From Shigella phage ESh7, in sequence record ON528720: 39,724 nucleotides of DNA. One strand, 5' to 3'. Numbering within the stretch: the stretch's first letter is position 1; each line of letters opens with the position of its first letter. This document shows, piece by piece, positions 27,686 through 39,724 of the stretch. The notes beneath the pieces are model-generated. The model had not been told where the DNA came from. It was given only the letters and a program-made list of their open reading frames with translations, and ran no database searches. A program made the position numbers and the translations under genes.

Positions 27686-29635
27686 ATGGCTACAAATATT
27701 AAGACCGTGATGACTTACCCGCTGGATGGTTCAACTACGGACTTTAATATTCCGTTCGAGTATCTGGCTCGTAAGTTCGTCCGAGTGACCCTTATCGGTG
27801 TTGACCGAAAGGAACTCATCTTGAATAAAGACTATCGTTTTGCTACTAAGACCACAATCTCCACAACGAGAGCATTGGGGCCAGCGGACGGTTATAACAT
27901 GATTGAAATCCGTCGATTCACCTCCGCTACAGATAGGCTGGTTGACTTCACCGATGGTTCAATCCTTCGGGCATATGATTTGAACATATCTCAGGTTCAG
28001 ACCCTTCACGTTGCTGAGGAAGCCCGCGACCTTACCGCAGATACAATTGGCGTCAACAATGGTGGGAACTTGGATGCTCGTGGTCGTCGTATCGTGAACG
28101 TTGCGGATGCACAAGATGTAGGTGACGCAATCAACCTAGGTCAAATCCAACGATGGAACGACTCTGCGTTGAACTCTGCTAATCGAGCGAAACAGGAAGC
28201 TGACCGTGCAACTGCGCGTGCAAACGATGCGAACAACTCTGCGAACGCCTCAGCGTCCTCCGCTAGTGCCTCTTCTGTCTCCGCCGAATTAGCAAAACAG
28301 TGGGCCGTTAAGGAAACCGCTGTGGAGCCTAATCTCGAGTCATCACGAACCTACGCGCTTCACTCCATGTCATACCGGAATGAGGCTAAAGGCTCTGCCG
28401 ACCGTGCCGCTGTTTCAGAGACCAACGCTAAGGCCTCCGAAGGGAGCGCTACTAACTCGGCTGCTGCCGCTAAGGTCTCAGAGACCAACGCTAAGGCCTC
28501 CGAGGAGAGAGCAATCACTGAGGCGAGTAAGCTTGGAAGCATGAATGGGTTTGCTGGTGCAATCGACAGGGTTGAAGGTGTAAACGTGTGGTTCAAAGGG
28601 ACACTCGTGACTACCGAGAACATCACTGGAGGTTGGCTTATTTCCACAGGCCACGCTAATATTGGTAAAGGGCTTGCGGTTCAGGAGAATGGTACTTTCG
28701 GTATCGACTTAACAGTCCAGCGCGACATTTATGGAAATCGTAACATGACAGTCGCTGGTAACTCTTGGTTGCAGGGAGGCATTGTCCAGTCGGCAGCCTC
28801 CACCGTGTATAACCAGCTATATCGCCTTCACCTGAGCAGTACACCAATGCATGTAGGGAACCGTCAGGGTGTCCACATTGGATGGAACGAGTCTAACGGT
28901 AAAGGTGAAGCTGTCTTTTTGAATAACCAAGGCCGTGGTGATGGTGGGTTCGTGTTCCGTACAGTTAACGTCGCCAACTCAGTTGAGAAGGGTCGTGTCG
29001 AGTTTACTCAGGACGGTAACATCTATGCGAATCACCTACAGGTTCGTTCCGGTGCCAGAATTGATGGGAACAACAACATCGTAGGTCAGTACCTCCACGC
29101 AGGAATGGGCAACGCGATACTAAACCCGGATGGGAACCTTAGCGGCGGTGTGTGGAACAGCGTTGGTGGACACCTTTGGGGAATGCTCAACGACAACTAC
29201 AGGTTCGCCAAACCTCCTGCTGGGGTTCGCCTGTACACAGGCCGTGGCTCGGACTACATTGAGGGTAACGTTGATGGTAAGGCCGTTGGGTTCCGATGGT
29301 TCCTGTCAGACAGAAGGCTTAAAGAGAACATCAAGGTTGTTCGCTCTGCCGATGATATGCTCAATATTATCCGCTCGTATATTCCGGTTTCGTATAAATA
29401 TAAGGACTCTGAGTACGTTGACAACCGTGGGAATACTGTGACTGTCGCTGGTAAGAACTCTCGTGCTGGTTTCATTACTCAGGACTTGATTCGAATCTGG
29501 CCGGAGGCGGTTGATATAATGAGCGACGGTATGCAGTCTCCAGACCCGAACCAGATCATTGGCGGATTGATGCTACTTGTTAAGAACCTAGATGCTCGCG
29601 TTCAGGAGCTTGAATCTAAACTTATGACAGACTAA
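27686..29635 (+). CDS. 17: tail fibre protein with C-terminal intramolecular chaperone (peptidase S74-like) domain
   Basis: 649 aa from ATG 27686 (RBS AAAGGAGGT); N-terminus MATNIKTVMTYPLDGSTTDFNIPFEYLARKFV... like T7 gp17; C-terminus SDRRLKENI...VSYKYK...GFITQDL...PEAV...LVKNLDARVQELESKL. Confidence 0.9.
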   Translation: MATNIKTVMTYPLDGSTTDFNIPFEYLARKFVRVTLIGVDRKELILNKDYRFATKTTISTTRALGPADGYNMIEIRRFTSATDRLVDFTDGSILRAYDLNISQVQTLHVAEEARDLTADTIGVNNGGNLDARGRRIVNVADAQDVGDAINLGQIQRWNDSALNSANRAKQEADRATARANDANNSANASASSASASSVSAELAKQWAVKETAVEPNLESSRTYALHSMSYRNEAKGSADRAAVSETNAKASEGSATNSAAAAKVSETNAKASEERAITEASKLGSMNGFAGAIDRVEGVNVWFKGTLVTTENITGGWLISTGHANIGKGLAVQENGTFGIDLTVQRDIYGNRNMTVAGNSWLQGGIVQSAASTVYNQLYRLHLSSTPMHVGNRQGVHIGWNESNGKGEAVFLNNQGRGDGGFVFRTVNVANSVEKGRVEFTQDGNIYANHLQVRSGARIDGNNNIVGQYLHAGMGNAILNPDGNLSGGVWNSVGGHLWGMLNDNYRFAKPPAGVRLYTGRGSDYIEGNVDGKAVGFRWFLSDRRLKENIKVVRSADDMLNIIRSYIPVSYKYKDSEYVDNRGNTVTVAGKNSRAGFITQDLIRIWPEAVDIMSDGMQSPDPNQIIGGLMLLVKNLDARVQELESKLMTD

Positions 29636-29853: not shown

Positions 29854-30120
29854 ATGAGCGACAAGACTTTAATCAAGCTGCTGGAGATGTTGGACACGGA
29901 GATGGCACAGCGTATGCTTGCTGACCTCCAGAGCGAGGAACGCCGAACGCCGCAGCTTTACAACGCAATCGGCAAACTGTTAGACCGCCATAAGTTCCAA
30001 ATCAGTAAGCTGACCCCGGATGAGAACATCCTTGGCGGTCTCGCGGCTGGTCTGGAAGACTACAACAAAGTGGTCGGCCCTAATGGTCTGACTGACGATG
30101 AGACCATCACGCTACAGTAA
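29854..30120 (+). CDS. 18: terminase small subunit
   Basis: 88 aa; position before gene 19; T7 gp18 is 89 aa. Confidence 0.8.
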   Translation: MSDKTLIKLLEMLDTEMAQRMLADLQSEERRTPQLYNAIGKLLDRHKFQISKLTPDENILGGLAAGLEDYNKVVGPNGLTDDETITLQ

Positions 30121-30210: not shown

Positions 30211-30663
30211 ATGCTAAAACTTTTACGCAGCGCACTCCCTTGGGTACTCGCCGGGACACTCTTTATGGGTGGCTGGCACTTAGGGTCAACCCATGAGAGA
30301 GCAAACTGGAAGGAGGTAATCCAAAATGAATACATTGCGAAAACAAAGGCAACCGCAGCAACTCAGGCAGAGGTCAGTAGGGTATCCCGTGAGTACCAAG
30401 AAGAGATTGCAGCCATTGAAGGCAGCACTGATAGGATGCTTAATGACCTGCGTAGTAATAATAAGCGGCTGTCAGTCCGCATCAAAACCCTTACCGGACT
30501 ACCAGAAGATAACGGTAGATGCGAGTTTAATGGTCGAGCCGAACTACACGAGTCAGATGCTAAGCGTATTATCGGAATAACCCAAGCTGCCGATGCTCAC
30601 GTAAGAGCGCTCCAGCGTACTATTAAGGAGATGCAGAATGAGCGACACCCAAGCAAACCGTAA
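30211..30663 (+). CDS. 18.5: i-spanin (Rz-like)
   Basis: 150 aa from ATG 30211 (RBS GGGAGGTG); [25 protein letters not shown] matches T7 gp18.5 N-terminus pattern. Confidence 0.8.
30326..30580 (+). CDS. 18.7: o-spanin lipoprotein (Rz1-like), nested in +1 frame of 18.5
   Basis: 84 aa; lipobox-like VVIISGC; C-terminus [17 protein letters not shown] parallels T7 gp18.7. Confidence 0.7.
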   Translation: MNTLRKQRQPQQLRQRSVGYPVSTKKRLQPLKAALIGCLMTCVVIISGCQSASKPLPDYQKITVDASLMVEPNYTSQMLSVLSE

Positions 30664-32401
30664 TGCGCTAATCATTGCGCAGCTTAAGGGTGACTTCGTG
30701 GCCTTCCTGTTCGTATTGTGGAAGGCTTTGGCTCTCCCGCCGCCGACTAAGTGTCAGATTGATATGGCCCGGTGTCTGGCTAACGGAGACAACAAGAAGT
30801 TTATCCTACAGGCTTTCCGTGGTATCGGTAAGTCATTCATCACCTGTGCGTTCGTTGTGTGGACGTTATGGCGTGACCCTCAGTTGAAGATACTAATTGT
30901 CTCTGCATCCAAAGAACGTGCGGACGCTAACTCCATCTTCATCAAGAACATCATTGACCTGCTGCCCTTCTTGGCTGAGCTAAAGCCTCGCCCCGGTCAG
31001 CGTGACTCTGTGATTAGTTTCGATGTTGGCCCTGCCAAGCCTGACCACTCTCCGTCTGTGAAGTCGGTGGGTATCACTGGTCAGTTGACTGGTAGTCGTG
31101 CTGATATCATCATAGCGGATGACGTTGAGATTCCGTCTAACTCCGCAACTCAAGGTGCCCGTGAGAAGCTGTGGACTCTGGTGCAGGAATTTGCCGCACT
31201 ACTGAAACCGCTGCCGACTTCTCGCGTTATCTACCTTGGTACGCCTCAAACCGAAATGACCTTGTACAAGGAACTCGAAGATAACCGTGGGTACACCACA
31301 ATCATCTGGCCTGCGCTCTATCCGCGTAGCCGTGAGGAAGACCTGTACTATGGCGACCGTCTGGCCCCGATGCTCCGCGAAGAGTTCAACGATGGGTTCG
31401 AGATGCTCCAAGGTCAACCAACTGACCCCGTGCGCTTCGATATGGAAGACCTGCGTGAGCGTGAGTTGGAATACGGTAAGGCTGGCTTCACTTTGCAGTT
31501 CATGCTCAACCCGAACCTGAGTGATGCCGAGAAGTACCCCTTACGCCTCCGTGACGCTATCGTGTGCGGTCTGGACTTCGAGAAAGCCCCAATGCATTAC
31601 CAGTGGCTTCCGAACCGTCAGAATCGCAATGAAGAGCTTCCTAACGTGGGACTTAAGGGTGATGATATTCATAGCTATCATTCGTGCAGCCAGAACACTG
31701 GACAGTATCAGCAACGCATCCTCGTGATTGACCCTAGTGGTCGCGGTAAGGATGAGACTGGTTACGCAGTGTTGTTCACCCTGAATGGCTACATCTATCT
31801 GATGGAAGCTGGCGGGTTCCGCGATGGTTATTCTGATAAGACCCTTGAGTCCCTCGCTAAGAAAGCGAAGCAGTGGAAGGTTCAGACAGTGGTCTTCGAG
31901 AGTAACTTCGGGGATGGTATGTTTGGTAAGGTATTCAGCCCGGTTCTCCTGAAACACCATGCAGCGCAGCTTGAAGAGATTCGTGCTCGTGGTATGAAGG
32001 AACTACGAATTTGTGATACGCTGGAACCTGTACTCTCTACGCACCGCCTTGTGATTCGTGACGAGGTGATTCGTGAGGACTACCAGACTGCCCGTGACGC
32101 TGATGGCAAGCATGATGTTCGCTATTCGCTGTTCTACCAGTTGACCCGCATGGCTCGTGAGAAGGGCGCTGTGGCCCATGATGACCGACTTGATGCGTTA
32201 GCATTGGGTGTGGAGTTCTTACGCTCTACGATGGAACTGGACGCTGTGAAGGTGGAGGCTGAGGTGCTTGAGGCGTTCTTAGAGGAACACATGGAGCACC
32301 CAATCCATTCGGCTGGTCATGTAGTTACCTCTATGGTTGACGGTATAGAACTCTATTGGGAGTATGACGATGTGAATAGCAACAGGTTCATTGACTGGTA
32401 G
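30638..32401 (+). CDS. 19: terminase large subunit
   Basis: 587 aa; synteny; ATPase/nuclease-size protein at the end of the late region. Confidence 0.95.
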
Positions 32402-32422
32402 TTATGCATATTGAGCGCATAA
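32402..32422 (+). promoter_or_regulatory. short inverted repeat hairpin after gene 19
   Basis: TTATGC-ATATTGAGC-GCATAA; 6-bp arms. Confidence 0.25.
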
Positions 32423-32480
32423 GGATTCAATTAGACCACGGACGGTCACTTTAAGAAATTCCTTAAGAATCAACGAGTTT

Positions 32481-32504
32481 GAATTAACCCTCACTAAAGG
32501 GAGA
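32481..32504 (+). promoter_or_regulatory. T3 RNA polymerase promoter (right-end promoter)
   Basis: GAATTAACCCTCACTAAAGGGAGA. Confidence 0.8.
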
Positions 32505-32645
32505 GAGGGGACTTAAAGCTACTATATAGGTTAGTCATTCAGGTTATGCAATGACCCTTTATGCACTTTAAGTCTGCCTCTGTGATTGGTGATATTATCA
32601 TTGTATAATCACCCTACCTTAGAGCAACTGAAAGGAGGTGGCTCA

Positions 32646-32795
32646 ATGTTACGCTTGATGATTGCCCTGCTGCGTCATAGAGTCACTTGGCGATTTCTTC
32701 TGGTACTTACTGCTACCCTTGGGTACGCAGGTCTTAATGGCCACCTCGGTCAACTGGAAGTGGCCTTTTGCTCTATACTCTCTTGTGGGGATTAA
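32646..32795 (+). CDS. 19.5: gene 19.5 homolog
   Basis: MLRLMIALLRHRVTWRFLLVLTATLGYAGLNGHLGQLEVAFCSILSCGD parallels T7 gp19.5 (49 aa); RBS GAAAGGAGGTG. Confidence 0.65.
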   Translation: MLRLMIALLRHRVTWRFLLVLTATLGYAGLNGHLGQLEVAFCSILSCGD

Positions 32796-32869
32796 ATTAT
32801 TGTTGATGAACGACAAGCGGCTCTGAGGGATTCGTAGGTATAGTTTCACTACACCAACTCATCCCTGTA

Positions 32870-33350
32870 GAGTCAACCCTAAAGGTTATACCTAAAGATG
32901 CCCTGTAGTTCGTAATGGTCTTACAGGGTCTTTAAGTGTCTCCTAGCTATCACTTCGGGATGCGCCTATGGTATCACCTATGGTGTGGCCCTACCTAAAG
33001 TGGTTGCCTAAAGAGGCCCTTTAAGAATTTACCACAAAAATCTGAATGGGTATCTCACAGTTCAAGAACCCAAAGTACCCCCCATAGCCCTCCTAAAGCC
33101 ACCTAAAGCCAGCCCTACCCCTAGGGTTTAACCTTCGGTTAACCTTGGGTATCTCCTCAAGTGGTCTATAGGATAGCCTAAAGTGTTGCCTAAAGTCAAT
33201 ACCTAAAGTGGTGGATGGCTTAAGGAGGACTTAAAGAGTGTCCTAGTGTACCAGTTCGATAGTACATCTCTATGTGTCCCTATCTGTTAGCCTCCTAAAG
33301 TAAACCTAAAGCCACTACCTAAAGACCAGACCTAAAGCTATCACCTAAAG
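32870..33350 (+). repeat. array of about 14 CCTAAAG heptamer repeats with irregular spacing (genome-end short repeats)
   Basis: CCTAAAG counted at about 32877, 32891, 32992, 33006, 33093, 33102, 33177, 33188, 33201, 33292, 33303, 33316, 33328, 33341; T7 ends carry the same ACCTAAAG arrays. Confidence 0.7.
33053..33281 (+). repeat. putative terminal repeat (single copy at concatemer-type junction)
   Basis: Begins TCTCACAG like the T7 left end and ends ...GTGTCCCT like the end of the T7 terminal repeat; about 229 bp; boundaries inferred by analogy. Confidence 0.4.
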
Positions 33351-33440
33351 CGGCGCTATCTTAAAGACAACCAGACCGATAAGACCCATTGTTAACCCGT
33401 AGTGATGCCCTGTGGTTCTCTATGGTGTCTATCGTCAATT

Positions 33441-33463
33441 CAATTACCCTCACTAAAGGGAAT
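33441..33463 (+). promoter_or_regulatory. T3 RNA polymerase promoter (left-end promoter)
   Basis: CAATTACCCTCACTAAAGGGAAT. Confidence 0.65.
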
Positions 33464-33517
33464 AAGGGATACTTAAAGAGGGAATTTAAAGATTTAATAA
33501 AAGATTTAAATTAATGG

Positions 33518-33547
33518 TTGACTTTAAGTAACCCTTAAGGCTATTAT
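33518..33547 (+). promoter_or_regulatory. host sigma70 early promoter (A1-like)
   Basis: TTGACT, about 17-18 nt spacer, TATTAT. Confidence 0.5.
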
Positions 33548-33646
33548 TCATCTCGTCAACGGGACAACGGCCTTAAAGCCACTCCCTGAGATACCGGAGT
33601 CAACCGGATAAGTAGACAGCCTGATAAGTCATACGAAAAACAGGCA

Positions 33647-33675
33647 TTGACAACATGAAGTAAACGCAGTAAGAT
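33647..33675 (+). promoter_or_regulatory. host sigma70 early promoter (A2-like)
   Basis: TTGACA, 17-nt spacer, TAAGAT; TTGACAACATGAAGTAA as in T7 A2/A3. Confidence 0.7.
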
Positions 33676-33756
33676 GTACCACATAGCGTTAACCGCCGAT
33701 TCGGTGTCTTCTAGGTGACTTAAGCGCACCACGGCACATAAAGCGAAACAAAATGG

Positions 33757-33785
33757 TTGACAACATGAAGTAAACGCAGTAAGAT
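33757..33785 (+). promoter_or_regulatory. host sigma70 early promoter (A3-like)
   Basis: Identical 36-bp copy of the A2 element TTGACAACATGAAGTAAACGCAGTAAGATGTACCAC. Confidence 0.7.
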
Positions 33786-33910
33786 GTACCACGAAATGAC
33801 GGAACAGTGAGGCGGGACACTGAAAGCCGCTAGGGTCTAACGAAACCAGACCGACACGCTCTTTAACAATCTGGATAATAGCTCTTGAGTGTACCGATGT
33901 ATAAGCGAAT

Positions 33911-33959
33911 AACTCAAGGTCGCACTGAAAGCGTGGCCTTTATGATATTCACTTAACAC
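33911..33959 (+). promoter_or_regulatory. RNase III-type processing hairpin (R0.3-like)
   Basis: AACTCAAGGTCGCACTGAAAGCGTGGCCTTTATGATATTCACTTAACAC. Confidence 0.55.
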
Positions 33960-33982
33960 AAACTAACATGAGGTAACACCAA

Positions 33983-34441
33983 ATGATTTTCACTAAAGAG
34001 CCTGCTAACGTCTTCTATGTACTGGTGTCAGCTTTCCGTTCAAACCTTGATGATGAGGTGAACATGAGTCGCCACCGCCACATTGTTAGCACTTTACGTG
34101 CCGCACCGGGTCTTTATGGCTCCATTGAGTCAACCGATTTGACCGGGTGCTATCGTGGGGCAATCGCAAGCGCACCGACTGAGGAAAAAACGGTTCGTGT
34201 ACGCTGCAAGGACAAGGCGCAGGCACTGAATGTTGCACGCTTAGCTTGCAATGAGTGGGAGCAAGATTGCGTACTGGTATACAAATCACAGACTCACACG
34301 GCTGGTCTGGTGTACGCTAAAGGAATCGACGGTTACAAGGCTGAACGTCTGCCGGGTAGCTTCCAAGAGGTGCCTAAAGGCGCACCGCTTCAAGGCTGCT
34401 TTACGATTGATGAGTTCGGACGCCGCTGGCAAGTGCAATAA
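33983..34441 (+). CDS. 0.3: S-adenosyl-L-methionine cleaving enzyme (T3 SAMase, anti-restriction)
   Basis: 152 aa, MIFTKEPANVFYVLVSAFRSNL...QGCFTIDEFGRRWQVQ; I recognise this as T3 gp0.3; first gene after early promoters. Confidence 0.85.
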   Translation: MIFTKEPANVFYVLVSAFRSNLDDEVNMSRHRHIVSTLRAAPGLYGSIESTDLTGCYRGAIASAPTEEKTVRVRCKDKAQALNVARLACNEWEQDCVLVYKSQTHTAGLVYAKGIDGYKAERLPGSFQEVPKGAPLQGCFTIDEFGRRWQVQ

Positions 34442-36464: not shown

Positions 36465-39119
36465 ATGAACATCATCGAAACTATCGAAAAGAATGACTTC
36501 TCCGAAATCGAACTGGCTGCTATCCCGTTCAACACACTGGCAGACCACTACGGCAGCGCATTGGCTCGTGAACAACTGGCTTTAGAGCACGAGTCTTATG
36601 AGCTAGGCGAGCGCCGCTTCCTCAAGATGCTTGAGCGTCAAGCGAAAGCTGGTGAGATTGCAGACAACGCAGCCGCTAAGCCGTTACTCGCTACGCTTCT
36701 CCCTAAGTTAACCGCACGCATCGTTGAGTGGCTCGAAGAGTACGCCTCTAAGAAAGGCCGCAAGCCTGTAGCCTATGCACCACTCCAATCACTCAAGCCG
36801 GAGGCGTCCGCGTTTATCACGCTCAAGGTCATCCTTGCGTCACTGACCAGCACGAACATGACAACCATTCAGGCCGCTGCTGGTATGCTAGGGAAGGCCA
36901 TTGAGGATGAGGCACGTTTCGGGCGCATCCGTGACCTCGAAGCGAAGCACTTCAAGAAGCACGTTGAGGAACAGCTTAACAAGCGCCACGGGCAAGTCTA
37001 CAAGAAAGCCTTTATGCAGGTGGTCGAGGCCGATATGATTGGTCGAGGTCTGCTTGGTGGCGAGGCGTGGTCTAGCTGGGATAAAGAAACCACGATGCAC
37101 GTAGGGATTCGCCTGATTGAAATGCTGATTGAGTCCACGGGTCTGGTGGAATTACAGCGCCACAACGCAGGTAACGCAGGCTCTGACCATGAGGCACTAC
37201 AACTGGCCCAAGAGTACGTGGACGTCTTAGCGAAGCGTGCAGGCGCTCTGGCGGGTATCTCTCCGATGTTCCAACCGTGTGTCGTACCGCCGAAACCTTG
37301 GGTAGCAATCACAGGTGGCGGCTATTGGGCGAACGGTCGCAGACCTTTGGCGCTCATTCGCACTCACTCTAAGAAGGGACTGATGCGCTATGATGATGTT
37401 TACATGCCAGAAGTTTACAAGGCGGTCAACATCGCACAGAACACCGCATGGAAAATCAACAAGAAAGTCCTCTCGGTTGTCAACGAGATTGTGAACTGGA
37501 AGAACTGCCCGGTCGCAGACATTCCATCGCTGGAGCGCCAAGAGTTACCACCTAAGCCGGACGACATTGACACCAACGAGGCAGCACTCAGGGAGTGGAA
37601 GAAAGCCGCCGCTGGTGTCTACCGCTTGGACAAGGCACGAGTGTCTCGCCGTATCAGCTTAGAGTTCATGCTGGAGCAGGCCAACAAGTTTGCAAACAAG
37701 AAAGCAATCTGGTTCCCTTACAACATGGACTGGCGCGGTCGTGTGTACGCTGTGCCTATGTTCAACCCGCAAGGCAACGACATGACGAAAGGTCTGCTGA
37801 CCCTCGCTAAAGGAAAGCCAATCGGTGAGGAAGGTTTCTACTGGCTGAAAATCCACGGCGCGAACTGTGCGGGTGTCGATAAGGTTCCTTTCCCTGAGCG
37901 CATCGCGTTCATTGAGAAGCACGTAGACGACATTCTGGCTTGCGCTAAAGACCCAATCAATAACACTTGGTGGGCCGAGCAGGATTCACCTTTCTGTTTC
38001 CTAGCGTTTTGCTTCGAGTATGCAGGCGTTGCGCACCACGGTCTGAGCTACAATTGCTCTCTGCCGCTGGCGTTCGACGGGTCTTGCTCTGGTATCCAGC
38101 ACTTCTCCGCTATGCTCCGCGATGAGGTAGGCGGTCGTGCGGTTAACCTGCTGCCAAGCGAAACCGTGCAGGACATTTACGGCATCGTTGCACAGAAAGT
38201 AAACGAGATTCTCAAACAGGATGCAATCAACGGCACACCTAACGAGATGATTACCGTGACCGACAATGACACCGGGGAAATCTCAGAGAAGCTCAAGCTG
38301 GGAACCTCAACGCTGGCGCAACAGTGGCTGGCATATGGTGTAACCCGTAGCGTAACTAAACGTTCGGTCATGACGCTGGCTTACGGTTCCAAGGAGTTCG
38401 GCTTTCGTCAACAGGTACTGGACGACACCATTCAGCCTGCGATTGACAGCGGTAAGGGCTTGATGTTCACCCAACCTAACCAAGCGGCTGGCTACATGGC
38501 TAAGCTGATTTGGGACGCGGTGAGCGTGACCGTAGTCGCAGCGGTCGAGGCGATGAACTGGCTCAAGTCTGCCGCTAAGCTGCTGGCTGCTGAGGTCAAG
38601 GACAAGAAGACCAAGGAGATTCTGCGTCACCGTTGCGCGGTTCACTGGACTACGCCGGACGGCTTCCCGGTCTGGCAGGAATACCGCAAGCCACTCCAGA
38701 AGCGTCTCGATATGATTTTCTTAGGGCAATTCCGTCTGCAACCGACGATTAATACCCTCAAGGATTCAGGCATTGACGCACACAAGCAGGAGTCTGGCAT
38801 CGCTCCTAACTTTGTTCACTCACAGGACGGTAGCCACCTCCGCATGACAGTAGTTTATGCTCACGAGAAGTATGGCATTGAGTCCTTTGCGCTCATCCAT
38901 GACAGCTTCGGGACTATCCCGGCAGACGCTGGTAAGCTGTTCAAAGCTGTACGTGAGACGATGGTTATCACCTACGAGAACAACGATGTGCTGGCAGACT
39001 TCTATGACCAGTTTGCAGACCAGCTACACGAGACCCAACTGGACAAGATGCCTCCGCTTCCGAAGAAAGGGAACCTGAACCTCCAAGACATTCTCAAGTC
39101 TGACTTTGCCTTTGCATAA
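36465..39119 (+). CDS. 1: single-subunit DNA-directed RNA polymerase
   Basis: 884 aa (T3 RNAP length as I recall it); motifs PMFQPCVVPPKPW, DGSCSGIQHFSAMLRDE, HDSFGT; C-terminal FAFA. Confidence 0.97.
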   Translation: MNIIETIEKNDFSEIELAAIPFNTLADHYGSALAREQLALEHESYELGERRFLKMLERQAKAGEIADNAAAKPLLATLLPKLTARIVEWLEEYASKKGRKPVAYAPLQSLKPEASAFITLKVILASLTSTNMTTIQAAAGMLGKAIEDEARFGRIRDLEAKHFKKHVEEQLNKRHGQVYKKAFMQVVEADMIGRGLLGGEAWSSWDKETTMHVGIRLIEMLIESTGLVELQRHNAGNAGSDHEALQLAQEYVDVLAKRAGALAGISPMFQPCVVPPKPWVAITGGGYWANGRRPLALIRTHSKKGLMRYDDVYMPEVYKAVNIAQNTAWKINKKVLSVVNEIVNWKNCPVADIPSLERQELPPKPDDIDTNEAALREWKKAAAGVYRLDKARVSRRISLEFMLEQANKFANKKAIWFPYNMDWRGRVYAVPMFNPQGNDMTKGLLTLAKGKPIGEEGFYWLKIHGANCAGVDKVPFPERIAFIEKHVDDILACAKDPINNTWWAEQDSPFCFLAFCFEYAGVAHHGLSYNCSLPLAFDGSCSGIQHFSAMLRDEVGGRAVNLLPSETVQDIYGIVAQKVNEILKQDAINGTPNEMITVTDNDTGEISEKLKLGTSTLAQQWLAYGVTRSVTKRSVMTLAYGSKEFGFRQQVLDDTIQPAIDSGKGLMFTQPNQAAGYMAKLIWDAVSVTVVAAVEAMNWLKSAAKLLAAEVKDKKTKEILRHRCAVHWTTPDGFPVWQEYRKPLQKRLDMIFLGQFRLQPTINTLKDSGIDAHKQESGIAPNFVHSQDGSHLRMTVVYAHEKYGIESFALIHDSFGTIPADAGKLFKAVRETMVITYENNDVLADFYDQFADQLHETQLDKMPPLPKKGNLNLQDILKSDFAFA

Positions 39120-39570: not shown

Positions 39571-39724
39571 ATGCGTACCAACTTTGAGAAATTTACCAAG
39601 CGCGATTCAGTGGTCAACGAGCATGGCGAACAGTGGCAAGAGCGCCGTTACCGCATGAAGAAACGCCACAAGCAACAGCGCCGTGACCGCATGAAGAAAC
39701 GCCACAAGCAACAGCGCGGTAACT
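39571..39724 (+). CDS. 1.1: gene 1.1 homolog, small basic protein, 3' end cut by window edge
   Basis: MRTNFEKFTKRD... parallels T7 gp1.1 MRNFEKMTKRSNRN...; reading frame still open at last base. Confidence 0.55.
   Translation, partial: MRTNFEKFTKRDSVVNEHGEQWQERRYRMKKRHKQQRRDRMKKRHKQQRGN
39646..39717 (+). repeat. in-frame 36-bp tandem duplication inside gene 1.1 (one mismatch)
   Basis: CGTTACCGCATGAAGAAACGCCACAAGCAACAGCGC / CGTGACCGCATGAAGAAACGCCACAAGCAACAGCGC, encoding R[Y/D]RMKKRHKQQR twice. Confidence 0.85.

What the first reader, a model, noticed from the sequence alone, without database searches (positions are those of the whole stretch)
32800..33470. Genome termini lie inside the window: single-copy terminal repeat at a concatemer-type junction
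After gene 19.5 the sequence turns non-coding and is packed with CCTAAAG heptamers. At 33053 it reads TCTCACAG, the motif that opens the T7 left end, and about 229 bp later it reads ...TATGTGTCCCTATCTGTTAG, which parallels the end of the T7 terminal repeat. Only one copy of this segment is present, and no second TCTCACAG occurs in the preceding 250 bp. The window is therefore a circularised or concatemer-derived representation, not the mature linear genome. The mature linear genome would begin near 33053 and would carry a second copy of 33053-33281 at its right end.
Basis: partly seen in the sequence, partly recalled or inferred. Interest (0 to 1): 0.4.

Follow-up and report, generated by a model that had tools for sequence, protein, structure and literature searches.

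The report
Collapsed terminal repeat of T3-like phage
The window is one complete genome of a T3-like phage written as an opened circle, so its two identical 229-base ends appear once, in the middle; this is a well-known feature and a common assembly artefact.

Summary
The window is a T3-like podophage genome (genus Teetrevirus), 95-96% identical to Yersinia phages phiYeO3-12 and phiYe-F10. Gene 19.5 ends at 32795. Curated relatives annotate no gene in the 1187 bases up to gene 0.3 at 33983.

I computed the exact terminal repeats of T3 (231 bp), phiSG-JL2 (230 bp) and phiYeO3-12 (232 bp) from both ends of their records. All three align base for base to window 33053-33281 (229 bp). The left edge is GGGTA|TCTCACAG and the right edge is GTGTCCCT|ATCTGTTAG. 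Read pile-ups on T3 virion DNA place its physical ends on these same 20-mers.

ATCTGTT at 33282-33288 is the pause signal for the phage RNA polymerase at the concatemer junction. It is the only copy on the + strand of the window.

Fourteen of the window's 24 CCTAAAG heptamers lie in 32878-33350, all on the + strand.

The repeat occurs once in the window. The window's own ends join seamlessly inside gene 1.1. The window is therefore one genome unit with the repeat collapsed, and the mature DNA should be 39,953 bp.

This is already known and of low interest. Physical ends were not measured here.

The parts
29854..30120 (+). gene 18, small terminase subunit (DNA packaging protein A), 88 aa
   Evidence: Pfam PF11123 DNA_Packaging_2, E=1.2e-16; ORF list
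30638..32401 (+). gene 19, T7-type large terminase, 587 aa
   Evidence: Pfam PF22530 Terminase-T7_RNaseH-like, E=3.3e-40, and PF03237. About 95-96% DNA identity to regions annotated as terminase large subunit.
32482..32504 (+). T3-type phage promoter phiOR (AATTAACCCTCACTAAAGGGAGA)
   Evidence: Member of the promoter repeat family D1. Same position relative to genes 19 and 19.5 as the annotated phiOR of T3, phiYeO3-12 and phiSG-JL2.
32646..32795 (+). gene 19.5, the last gene of the genome, 49 aa
   Evidence: Sequence and ORFs. A 150-bp gene 19.5 is annotated at the same place in T3, phiYeO3-12 and phiSG-JL2. No Pfam family.
32796..33052 (+). Right-end unique non-coding region, just left of the repeat. 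It has two pairs of CCTAAAG (32878/32891 and 32994/33007), a CCCTGTA...TACAGGG hairpin at about 32901-32931, and a 23-bp extra segment at about 32949-32971. It ends ...AATCTGAATGGGTA.
   Evidence: Alignment to the right ends of T3, phiSG-JL2 and phiYeO3-12; heptamer positions; DNA fold z = -2.5
33053..33281 (+). Single, collapsed copy of the 229-bp direct terminal repeat. The predicted left end of the mature DNA is 33053 (TCTCACAG...). The predicted right end is 33281 (...GTGTCCCT).
   Evidence: The exact repeats of T3 (231), phiSG-JL2 (230) and phiYeO3-12 (232) map to exactly these coordinates. 94-98% identity to annotated terminal repeats. T3 physical termini are reported in PMC3896407. Single copy in the window.
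33170..33199 (-). Leftward host-type promoter A0 inside the repeat (-35 TTGACT at 33199-33194, -10 TATCCT at 33175-33170)
   Evidence: Consensus scan. A leftward A0 promoter is annotated within the repeat of T3; phiSG-JL2 and phiYeO3-12 carry the same signals, listed on the + strand.
33282..33288 (+). ATCTGTT, the class II pause/termination signal for the phage RNA polymerase (the 'CJ' site). It follows the repeat immediately and is preceded by T.
   Evidence: It is the only + strand copy in the window. Same position as 'putative CJ terminator' at 231-237 of phiSG-JL2. The edge is conserved in T3, phiYeO3-12 and T7. Literature.
33294..33350 (+). Left-end array of five CCTAAAG heptamers spaced 11-13 bp apart, with a CTTAAAG variant at 33360
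   Evidence: Homologous arrays with different copy numbers occur in T3, phiSG-JL2, phiYeO3-12 and T7.
33441..33463 (+). T3-type phage promoter phiOL
   Evidence: Promoter family D1. Aligned with the annotated phiOL of T3, phiYeO3-12 and phiSG-JL2.
33518..33785 (+). Host sigma-70 early promoters A1 (33518-33547), A2 (33647-33675) and A3 (33757-33785)
   Evidence: Consensus scan, 10 of 12 matches each. The A2/A3 49-bp direct repeat is family D6. The order matches the annotations in T3, phiYeO3-12 and phiSG-JL2.
33983..34441 (+). gene 0.3, the first gene of the genome (S-adenosylmethionine lyase, 152 aa)
   Evidence: Pfam PF23780, E=1.2e-40
36465..39119 (+). gene 1, single-subunit phage RNA polymerase (884 aa), the enzyme that would read phiOR/phiOL and pause at ATCTGTT
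   Evidence: Pfam PF00940, E=9.5e-111, and PF14700

Best explanation
Window 33053-33281 is the one retained copy of the exact 229-bp direct terminal repeat of a T3-like phage (Teetrevirus). The stretch 32796 to about 33440 is its concatemer junction.

The window is one genome unit (39,724 bp) written as a circle and opened arbitrarily inside gene 1.1. The most likely cause is that an assembler merged the two identical ends. Virion DNA should start at 33053, run through 39724 into 1, and end at 33281. That gives 39,953 bp with the repeat at both ends.

How it works, taken from T7/T3 biology and inferred for this phage:
1. Replicated genomes join head to tail through the repeat, so each junction carries a single copy.
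2. The phage RNA polymerase transcribes rightward through the repeat and pauses at ATCTGTT (33282-33288), just past it.
3. The paused polymerase helps recruit terminase gp18/gp19 and a prohead.
4. Terminase makes sequence-specific cuts at the repeat edges.
5. The repeat is duplicated by fill-in or strand-displacement synthesis, so both neighbouring genomes receive a copy.

The CCTAAAG heptamers sit about one helical turn apart on one strand, on both sides of the repeat and inside it. They are conserved components of the junction, and their precise role is not established.
For: Shown here:
- The window is 95-96% identical over 25 kb to phiYeO3-12, phiYe-F10 and other Teetrevirus phages.
- The junction region is 90-95.5% identical to many relatives.
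- The 229-bp segment is 94-98% identical to segments annotated as terminal repeats at position 1 of phiSG-JL2, phiYeO3-12, phiYe-F10, Kpn-11mx and SH1.
- The exact repeats computed from both ends of T3, phiSG-JL2 and phiYeO3-12 map to 33053-33281.
- The edge motifs TA|TCTCAYAG and GTGTCCCT|ATCTGTTA are conserved even in T7, whose repeat is 160 bp.
- Flanking order is phiOR, gene 19.5, junction, phiOL, A1-A3, gene 0.3, as in T3.
- T7-type terminase subunits and the phage RNA polymerase are encoded.
- There is one copy of the repeat and no end overlap.
- The window ends join without loss or gain of bases inside gene 1.1.

From the literature:
- T3 termini measured by read pile-ups (PMC3896407).
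- Repeats arise by extension synthesis at staggered nicks, and assemblers place the first base of such genomes arbitrarily (PMC5557969).
- Concatemers carry one repeat per junction (PMC5000459).
- ATCTGTT is the class II signal at the T7 junction.
Against: No reads or virion DNA are available, so the physical ends and the twofold coverage of this phage are inferred by homology only.

Two relatives, Klebsiella phages ChM-G5 and VSG32, are deposited with a longer repeat that begins 23 bp upstream of the TCTCACAG homologue. For ChM-G5, whose record I fetched, it is 276 bp long and ends 24 bp downstream of the repeat-end homologue. Annotated boundaries in the genus are therefore not unanimous.

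The role of the heptamers and the exact chemistry of repeat duplication are not settled even for T7/T3. [quoted passage not shown]
Confidence: 0.93

Rival explanations
1. The element is the terminal repeat, but in this phage the physical ends are shifted by some tens of bases from the T3 positions. For example, a repeat of about 276 bp running from about 33030 to about 33305, as annotated for Klebsiella phage ChM-G5.
For: The ChM-G5 record annotates a 276-bp repeat starting 23 bp upstream of TCTCACAG and ending 24 bp after GTGTCCCT. The VSG32 record also has a left repeat with the TCTCACAG homologue at position 24.
Against: The edge sequences in the window are identical or nearly identical to those of T3, where the ends were measured. 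At least ten other relatives are deposited with the T3-type edges. The basis of the ChM-G5 annotation is unknown.
Confidence: 0.04
2. The single copy reflects real intracellular concatemeric DNA in the sequenced sample, where junctions truly carry one repeat, rather than assembler collapse of the two virion ends.
For: Concatemer junctions of T7-like phages do carry one repeat. The sequence alone cannot tell the two origins apart.
Against: The window is exactly one unit long with a seamless arbitrary seam in gene 1.1. That is the signature of a circularised assembly. Of the 60 best database rows, 39 show the same single, non-terminal copy. Collapse also happens with pure virion DNA. This rival changes only the history of the record, not what the element is.
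Confidence: 0.1
3. The phage packages by the headful mechanism and is truly circularly permuted, so there are no fixed ends and the non-coding region is only a regulatory or origin region.
For: None beyond the permuted form of the record.
Against: The terminase is T7-type (PF22530) and lies in DNA 95-96% identical to relatives deposited with fixed repeat ends. The junction with its edge motifs is conserved. T3 has fixed ends by direct measurement.
Confidence: 0.01

Closest known systems
Terminal repeat and concatemer junction of Salmonella phage phiSG-JL2 (NC_010807; LTR 1-230, RTR 38586-38815)
   Same: 97.8% identity over the whole 229 bp. Same TCTCACAG start and same GTGTCCCT|ATCTGTT end, with a 'CJ terminator' annotated at 231-237. 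Same flanks: phiOR, gene 19.5, phiOL, A1-A3 and gene 0.3.
   Different: The repeat is 229 bp rather than 230 bp. The window has a 23-bp extra segment in the right-end unique region (about 32949-32971). The window holds one copy, the record holds two.
Bacteriophage T3 terminal repeat (NC_003298; 1-231 and 37978-38208), with ends measured physically
   Same: Homologous throughout, with identical edges at both boundaries. The right-terminal 20-mer GTACATCTCTATGTGTCCCT is identical.
   Different: T3 starts TCTCATAG where the window has TCTCACAG. T3 has fewer CCTAAAG copies: 3 in the repeat and 2 in the left array, against 5 and 5 here. There are small indels.
Yersinia phage phiYeO3-12 terminal repeat (NC_001271; 232 bp), among the closest whole-genome relatives
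   Same: 94% identity in the repeat and 96% over 25 kb of genome. Same architecture.
   Different: phiYeO3-12 has two extra heptamer units left of the repeat and a different heptamer count to the right. It lacks the 36-bp duplication in gene 1.1.
Bacteriophage T7 terminal repeat (160 bp) and its CJ pause site
   Same: Same start (TCTCACAG) and same end (TGTGTCCCT|ATCTGTTA). CCTAAAG arrays flank the repeat. phiOR and phiOL flank the junction.
   Different: The T7 repeat is 69 bp shorter and its interior is largely non-alignable. T7 belongs to a different genus (Teseptimavirus) and has a different promoter specificity.

Membership tests
T3/T7-type short exact direct terminal repeat (concatemer junction of Studiervirinae) | Sequence homologous to the terminal repeats of phages whose ends are known | tested here: met
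   94-98% identity over 229 of 229 bases to annotated repeats of phiSG-JL2, phiYeO3-12, phiYe-F10, Kpn-11mx and SH1. The exact repeats of T3, phiSG-JL2 and phiYeO3-12 map to 33053-33281.
T3/T7-type short exact direct terminal repeat (concatemer junction of Studiervirinae) | Conserved edge sequences: left end TCTCAYAG preceded by ...TA, right end ...GTGTCCCT followed by ATCTGTT | tested here: met
   The window reads GGGTA|TCTCACAG at 33053 and GTGTCCCT|ATCTGTTAG at 33281/33282. ATCTGTT is unique on the + strand.
T3/T7-type short exact direct terminal repeat (concatemer junction of Studiervirinae) | The segment is present at both ends of virion DNA (terminal redundancy with fixed ends) | not testable with these tools
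   No reads or virion DNA are available. The window holds one copy. Measured in T3 only (PMC3896407; PMC5557969).
T3/T7-type short exact direct terminal repeat (concatemer junction of Studiervirinae) | Position between the last gene (19.5, after phiOR) and the early region (phiOL, A1-A3, gene 0.3) | tested here: met
   compared with the annotations.
T3/T7-type short exact direct terminal repeat (concatemer junction of Studiervirinae) | T7-type terminase (gp18 and gp19) and a single-subunit phage RNA polymerase are encoded | tested here: met
   PF11123, PF22530 and PF03237; PF00940 and PF14700.
Circularly opened (permuted) assembly of a repeat-ended genome | The record ends are contiguous in relatives, with no bases lost or gained, and fall at a place with no biological end | tested here: met
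   The join 39724->1 aligns without a gap at the seam to phiYeO3-12 gene 1.1 and spans the gene 1.1/1.2 region. There is no end overlap.
Headful (pac) packaging with true circular permutation | Headful-type terminase and no conserved fixed-end junction | tested here: not met
   The terminase is T7-type. The fixed-end junction is conserved.

The most novel reading that the evidence does not exclude
The most novel reading not excluded concerns the CCTAAAG heptamers. They all lie on one strand, in clusters spaced 10-13 bp apart (about one helical turn), to the left of, inside and to the right of the repeat, and their copy number varies between close relatives. They could be the still-undefined recognition array for the small terminase gp18 or another junction-binding protein, with copy-number changes tuning packaging. 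This would apply to the whole T3/T7 group and not to this window in particular. Nothing here tests binding.
Probability: 0.25. Interest if true: 0.4.

Novelty: already known. Interest (0 to 1): 0.08.

Why it matters
The main value is for annotation. The genome should be re-opened at 33053 and given a second copy of 33053-33281 at its right end, for a total of 39,953 bp. Short ORF calls inside 32796-33982 should be treated as spurious. The finding adds no new biology. The terminal repeat, its edges, the polymerase pause site and the heptamer arrays are textbook features of T3/T7-like phages. Permuted single-copy records of such phages are very common in databases.

Tried and rejected
- Rfam scan of 32400-34100 at E<=1 gave one chance hit (CC2171, 19 bits against a gathering score of 75). 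No RNA family is involved.
- A search of the viral contig collection for a window-specific 38-mer from the right-end unique region found nothing, so the source contig could not be traced.
- Single-strand DNA folding gave only modest structure. The right-end unique region scored z = -2.5, with a CCCTGTA/TACAGGG hairpin. The repeat itself scored z = -1.4. I do not build any claim on these.
- A literature search for the heptamer itself returned only unrelated papers. A search for 'terminal repetition' together with duplication found none. A search for the T3 'pacB' site found no paper containing that term. Statements on pac sub-sites are therefore left out.
- TCTCACAG and ATCTGTT counts are at chance level across the window. 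Their significance rests on position and homology only.
- Headful packaging and 'the window ends are the real ends' were considered and rejected.

Full report
**What the window is.** A 25-kb stretch (8001-33000) is 95-96% identical, over 93-95% of its length, to Yersinia phages phiYe-F10, phiYeO3-12 and vB_YenP_AP5, Enterobacter phage E-3 and several Klebsiella and Pantoea phages. All are T3-like podophages, and those whose records I fetched are classified in the genus Teetrevirus. About fifteen T3-type promoters (consensus AATTAACCCTCACTAAAGGGAGA) are scattered over the + strand. The window encodes an 884-aa single-subunit RNA polymerase, the small and large T7-type terminase subunits, and an S-adenosylmethionine lyase as gene 0.3. 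No database record matches better than about 96.5% over the 25-kb stretch, so this is a separate isolate or contig of a well-known group.

**Checking the observation.**
- Gene 19.5 occupies 32646-32795. It is 150 bp long, the same length as in T3, phiYeO3-12 and phiSG-JL2.
- Gene 0.3 starts at 33983. The 1187 bases between hold only short ORFs of 78 aa or less. The curated reference records annotate no gene there.
- CCTAAAG occurs 24 times in the window, against 3.88 expected from shuffles.
- Fourteen of these lie in 32878-33350, all on the + strand. About 0.06 are expected for a stretch of that size (Poisson P about 1e-28).
- They form clusters with 10-13 bp spacing: four left of the repeat, five inside it and five to its right.
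- TCTCACAG is at 33053. As an octamer it is at chance frequency, with 2 found and 2.19 expected.
- The quoted TATGTGTCCCTATCTGTTAG is at 33271-33290.
- No second copy of 33053-33281 exists in the window, and the window ends do not overlap.

**Where the repeat edges are.** For T3, phiSG-JL2, phiYeO3-12 and T7 I fetched both record ends. I computed the longest prefix that is also a suffix, which gave 231, 230, 232 and 160 bp. In all four the repeat starts TCTCA(C/T)AG, preceded at the right end by ...TA. In all four it ends ...TGTGTCCCT and is followed at the left end by ATCTGTTA.

I then built artificial junctions (right end plus the left-end unique sequence) and aligned them with the window. 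The repeats of T3, phiSG-JL2 and phiYeO3-12 all map to exactly 33053-33281, which is 229 bp. The aligner misplaced the shorter T7 repeat end, but its edge motif is plainly the same.

A database search with the 229 bp gave full-length matches of 94-98% identity. These fall at position 1 of records that annotate them as 'left terminal repeat', 'redundant repeat' or 'direct terminal repeat' of 227-232 bp.

The physical ends of T3 were measured by others from read pile-ups on virion DNA, both with and without adaptor tagging. They are TCTCATAGTTCAAGAACCCA at position 1 and the complement of GTACATCTCTATGTGTCCCT at position 38208 (PMC3896407). PhageTerm recovers the same 231-bp repeat (PMC5557969). 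The window carries TCTCACAGTTCAAGAACCCA at 33053 and an identical GTACATCTCTATGTGTCCCT at 33262-33281.

Only the quoted end motif runs 9 bases too far.

**The seven bases after the repeat.** ATCTGTT (33282-33288, preceded by T) is the strictly conserved class II pause/termination signal of T7-type RNA polymerases. [quoted passage not shown] It is the only copy on the + strand, which carries all the long ORFs and T3-type promoters. The polymerase-lysozyme complex is reported to pause there and to interact with gp18/gp19 to start maturation and packaging (PMC3276506).

**Why the window is a permuted, collapsed representation.** Joining base 39724 to base 1 gives a sequence that aligns to phiYeO3-12 without any gap or extra base at the seam. 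The seam lies inside gene 1.1, 20 bases before its stop and just upstream of gene 1.2. The window is thus exactly one genome unit. [quoted passage not shown] Of the 60 best database rows for the repeat, 15 hold two copies and 6 start at the repeat but lack the second copy. The other 39 carry a single copy away from the record start, like this window. The mature DNA is predicted to be 39,724 + 229 = 39,953 bp.

**Anatomy of the junction, left to right.**
- phiOR promoter, 32482-32504.
- Gene 19.5, 32646-32795.
- Right-end unique region, 32796-33052, with two heptamer pairs and a small hairpin.
- The repeat, 33053-33281, with five heptamers and a leftward host-type promoter A0 at 33199-33170.
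- The ATCTGTT pause site, 33282-33288.
- An array of five heptamers, 33294-33350.
- phiOL promoter, 33441-33463.
- Host promoters A1, A2 and A3, within 33518-33785.
- Gene 0.3, from 33983.

The order is that of T3, phiYeO3-12 and phiSG-JL2.

**Mechanism.** What is shown here is homology, position and gene content. The following steps are taken from work on T7/T3 and inferred for this phage:
1. Genomes join through the repeat into concatemers.
2. The polymerase pauses at ATCTGTT.
3. Terminase and a prohead are recruited.
4. Specific cuts are made at the two edges.
5. The repeat is duplicated by extension synthesis at staggered nicks.

[quoted passage not shown] I found no established role for the heptamers. 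Their copy number varies among close relatives.

**Caveats.** The physical ends of this phage were not measured. Two Klebsiella phage records (ChM-G5 and VSG32) begin their repeat 23 bp upstream of the T3-type start, and the ChM-G5 repeat is 276 bp, also ending 24 bp past the T3-type end. I do not know how that was determined. It is an outlier against at least ten records with T3-type edges.

**Verdict.** The feature is already known and interest is low.

Noticed in passing
window 39636-39707: There is an in-frame 36-bp tandem duplication (12 aa; the two copies differ at 2 bases) inside gene 1.1, 17 bp from the window's end. It is absent from phiYeO3-12 and from the eight best database records, which have 129 bp where the window has 165. 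The two mismatches argue against a simple assembly overlap artefact.
   Followed up: partly
window ~32949-32971: A 23-bp extra segment (CCTAGCTATCACTTCGGGATGCG) lies in the right-end unique region just left of the repeat. T3, phiSG-JL2 and phiYeO3-12 lack it. A 38-mer spanning it was not found in the viral contig collection.
   Followed up: partly
L009 (Klebsiella phage ChM-G5, OR287804) 1-276: This relative annotates a 276-bp terminal repeat that starts 23 bp upstream of TCTCACAG and ends 24 bp past GTGTCCCT. This is unlike T3, phiSG-JL2, phiYeO3-12, phiYe-F10, SH1 and Kpn-11mx. Either its ends truly differ or the annotation is approximate.
   Followed up: no
window 28400-29635: The C-terminal half of the tail-fibre gene 17 is mosaic. 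It is 92-95% identical to Yersinia phage vB_Yep_15 and Shigella phage ESh8. It is only about 76% identical to phiYe-F10, which is among the closest relatives elsewhere in the genome.
   Followed up: partly
window 32878-33350 compared with L001-L008: The number of CCTAAAG units differs between close relatives. Counts for right flank / repeat / left flank are: window 4/5/5, phiSG-JL2 4/5/4, phiYeO3-12 6/4/3, T3 4/3/2, T7 2/3/7. This suggests unit gain and loss by slippage or unequal exchange.
   Followed up: partly
window 33634-33792: Host promoters A2 and A3 sit in a 49-bp direct repeat 110 bp apart (88% identity). The -35 to -10 segments are identical: TTGACAACATGAAGTAAACGCAGTAAGAT.
   Followed up: no
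database records (e.g. ON528723 ESh10, OR896841 GlastosBack): Several automatically annotated relatives call two to four 'hypothetical proteins' across the homologous non-coding junction. The curated T3, phiYeO3-12 and phiSG-JL2 records have none there, so these are likely over-calls.
   Followed up: no
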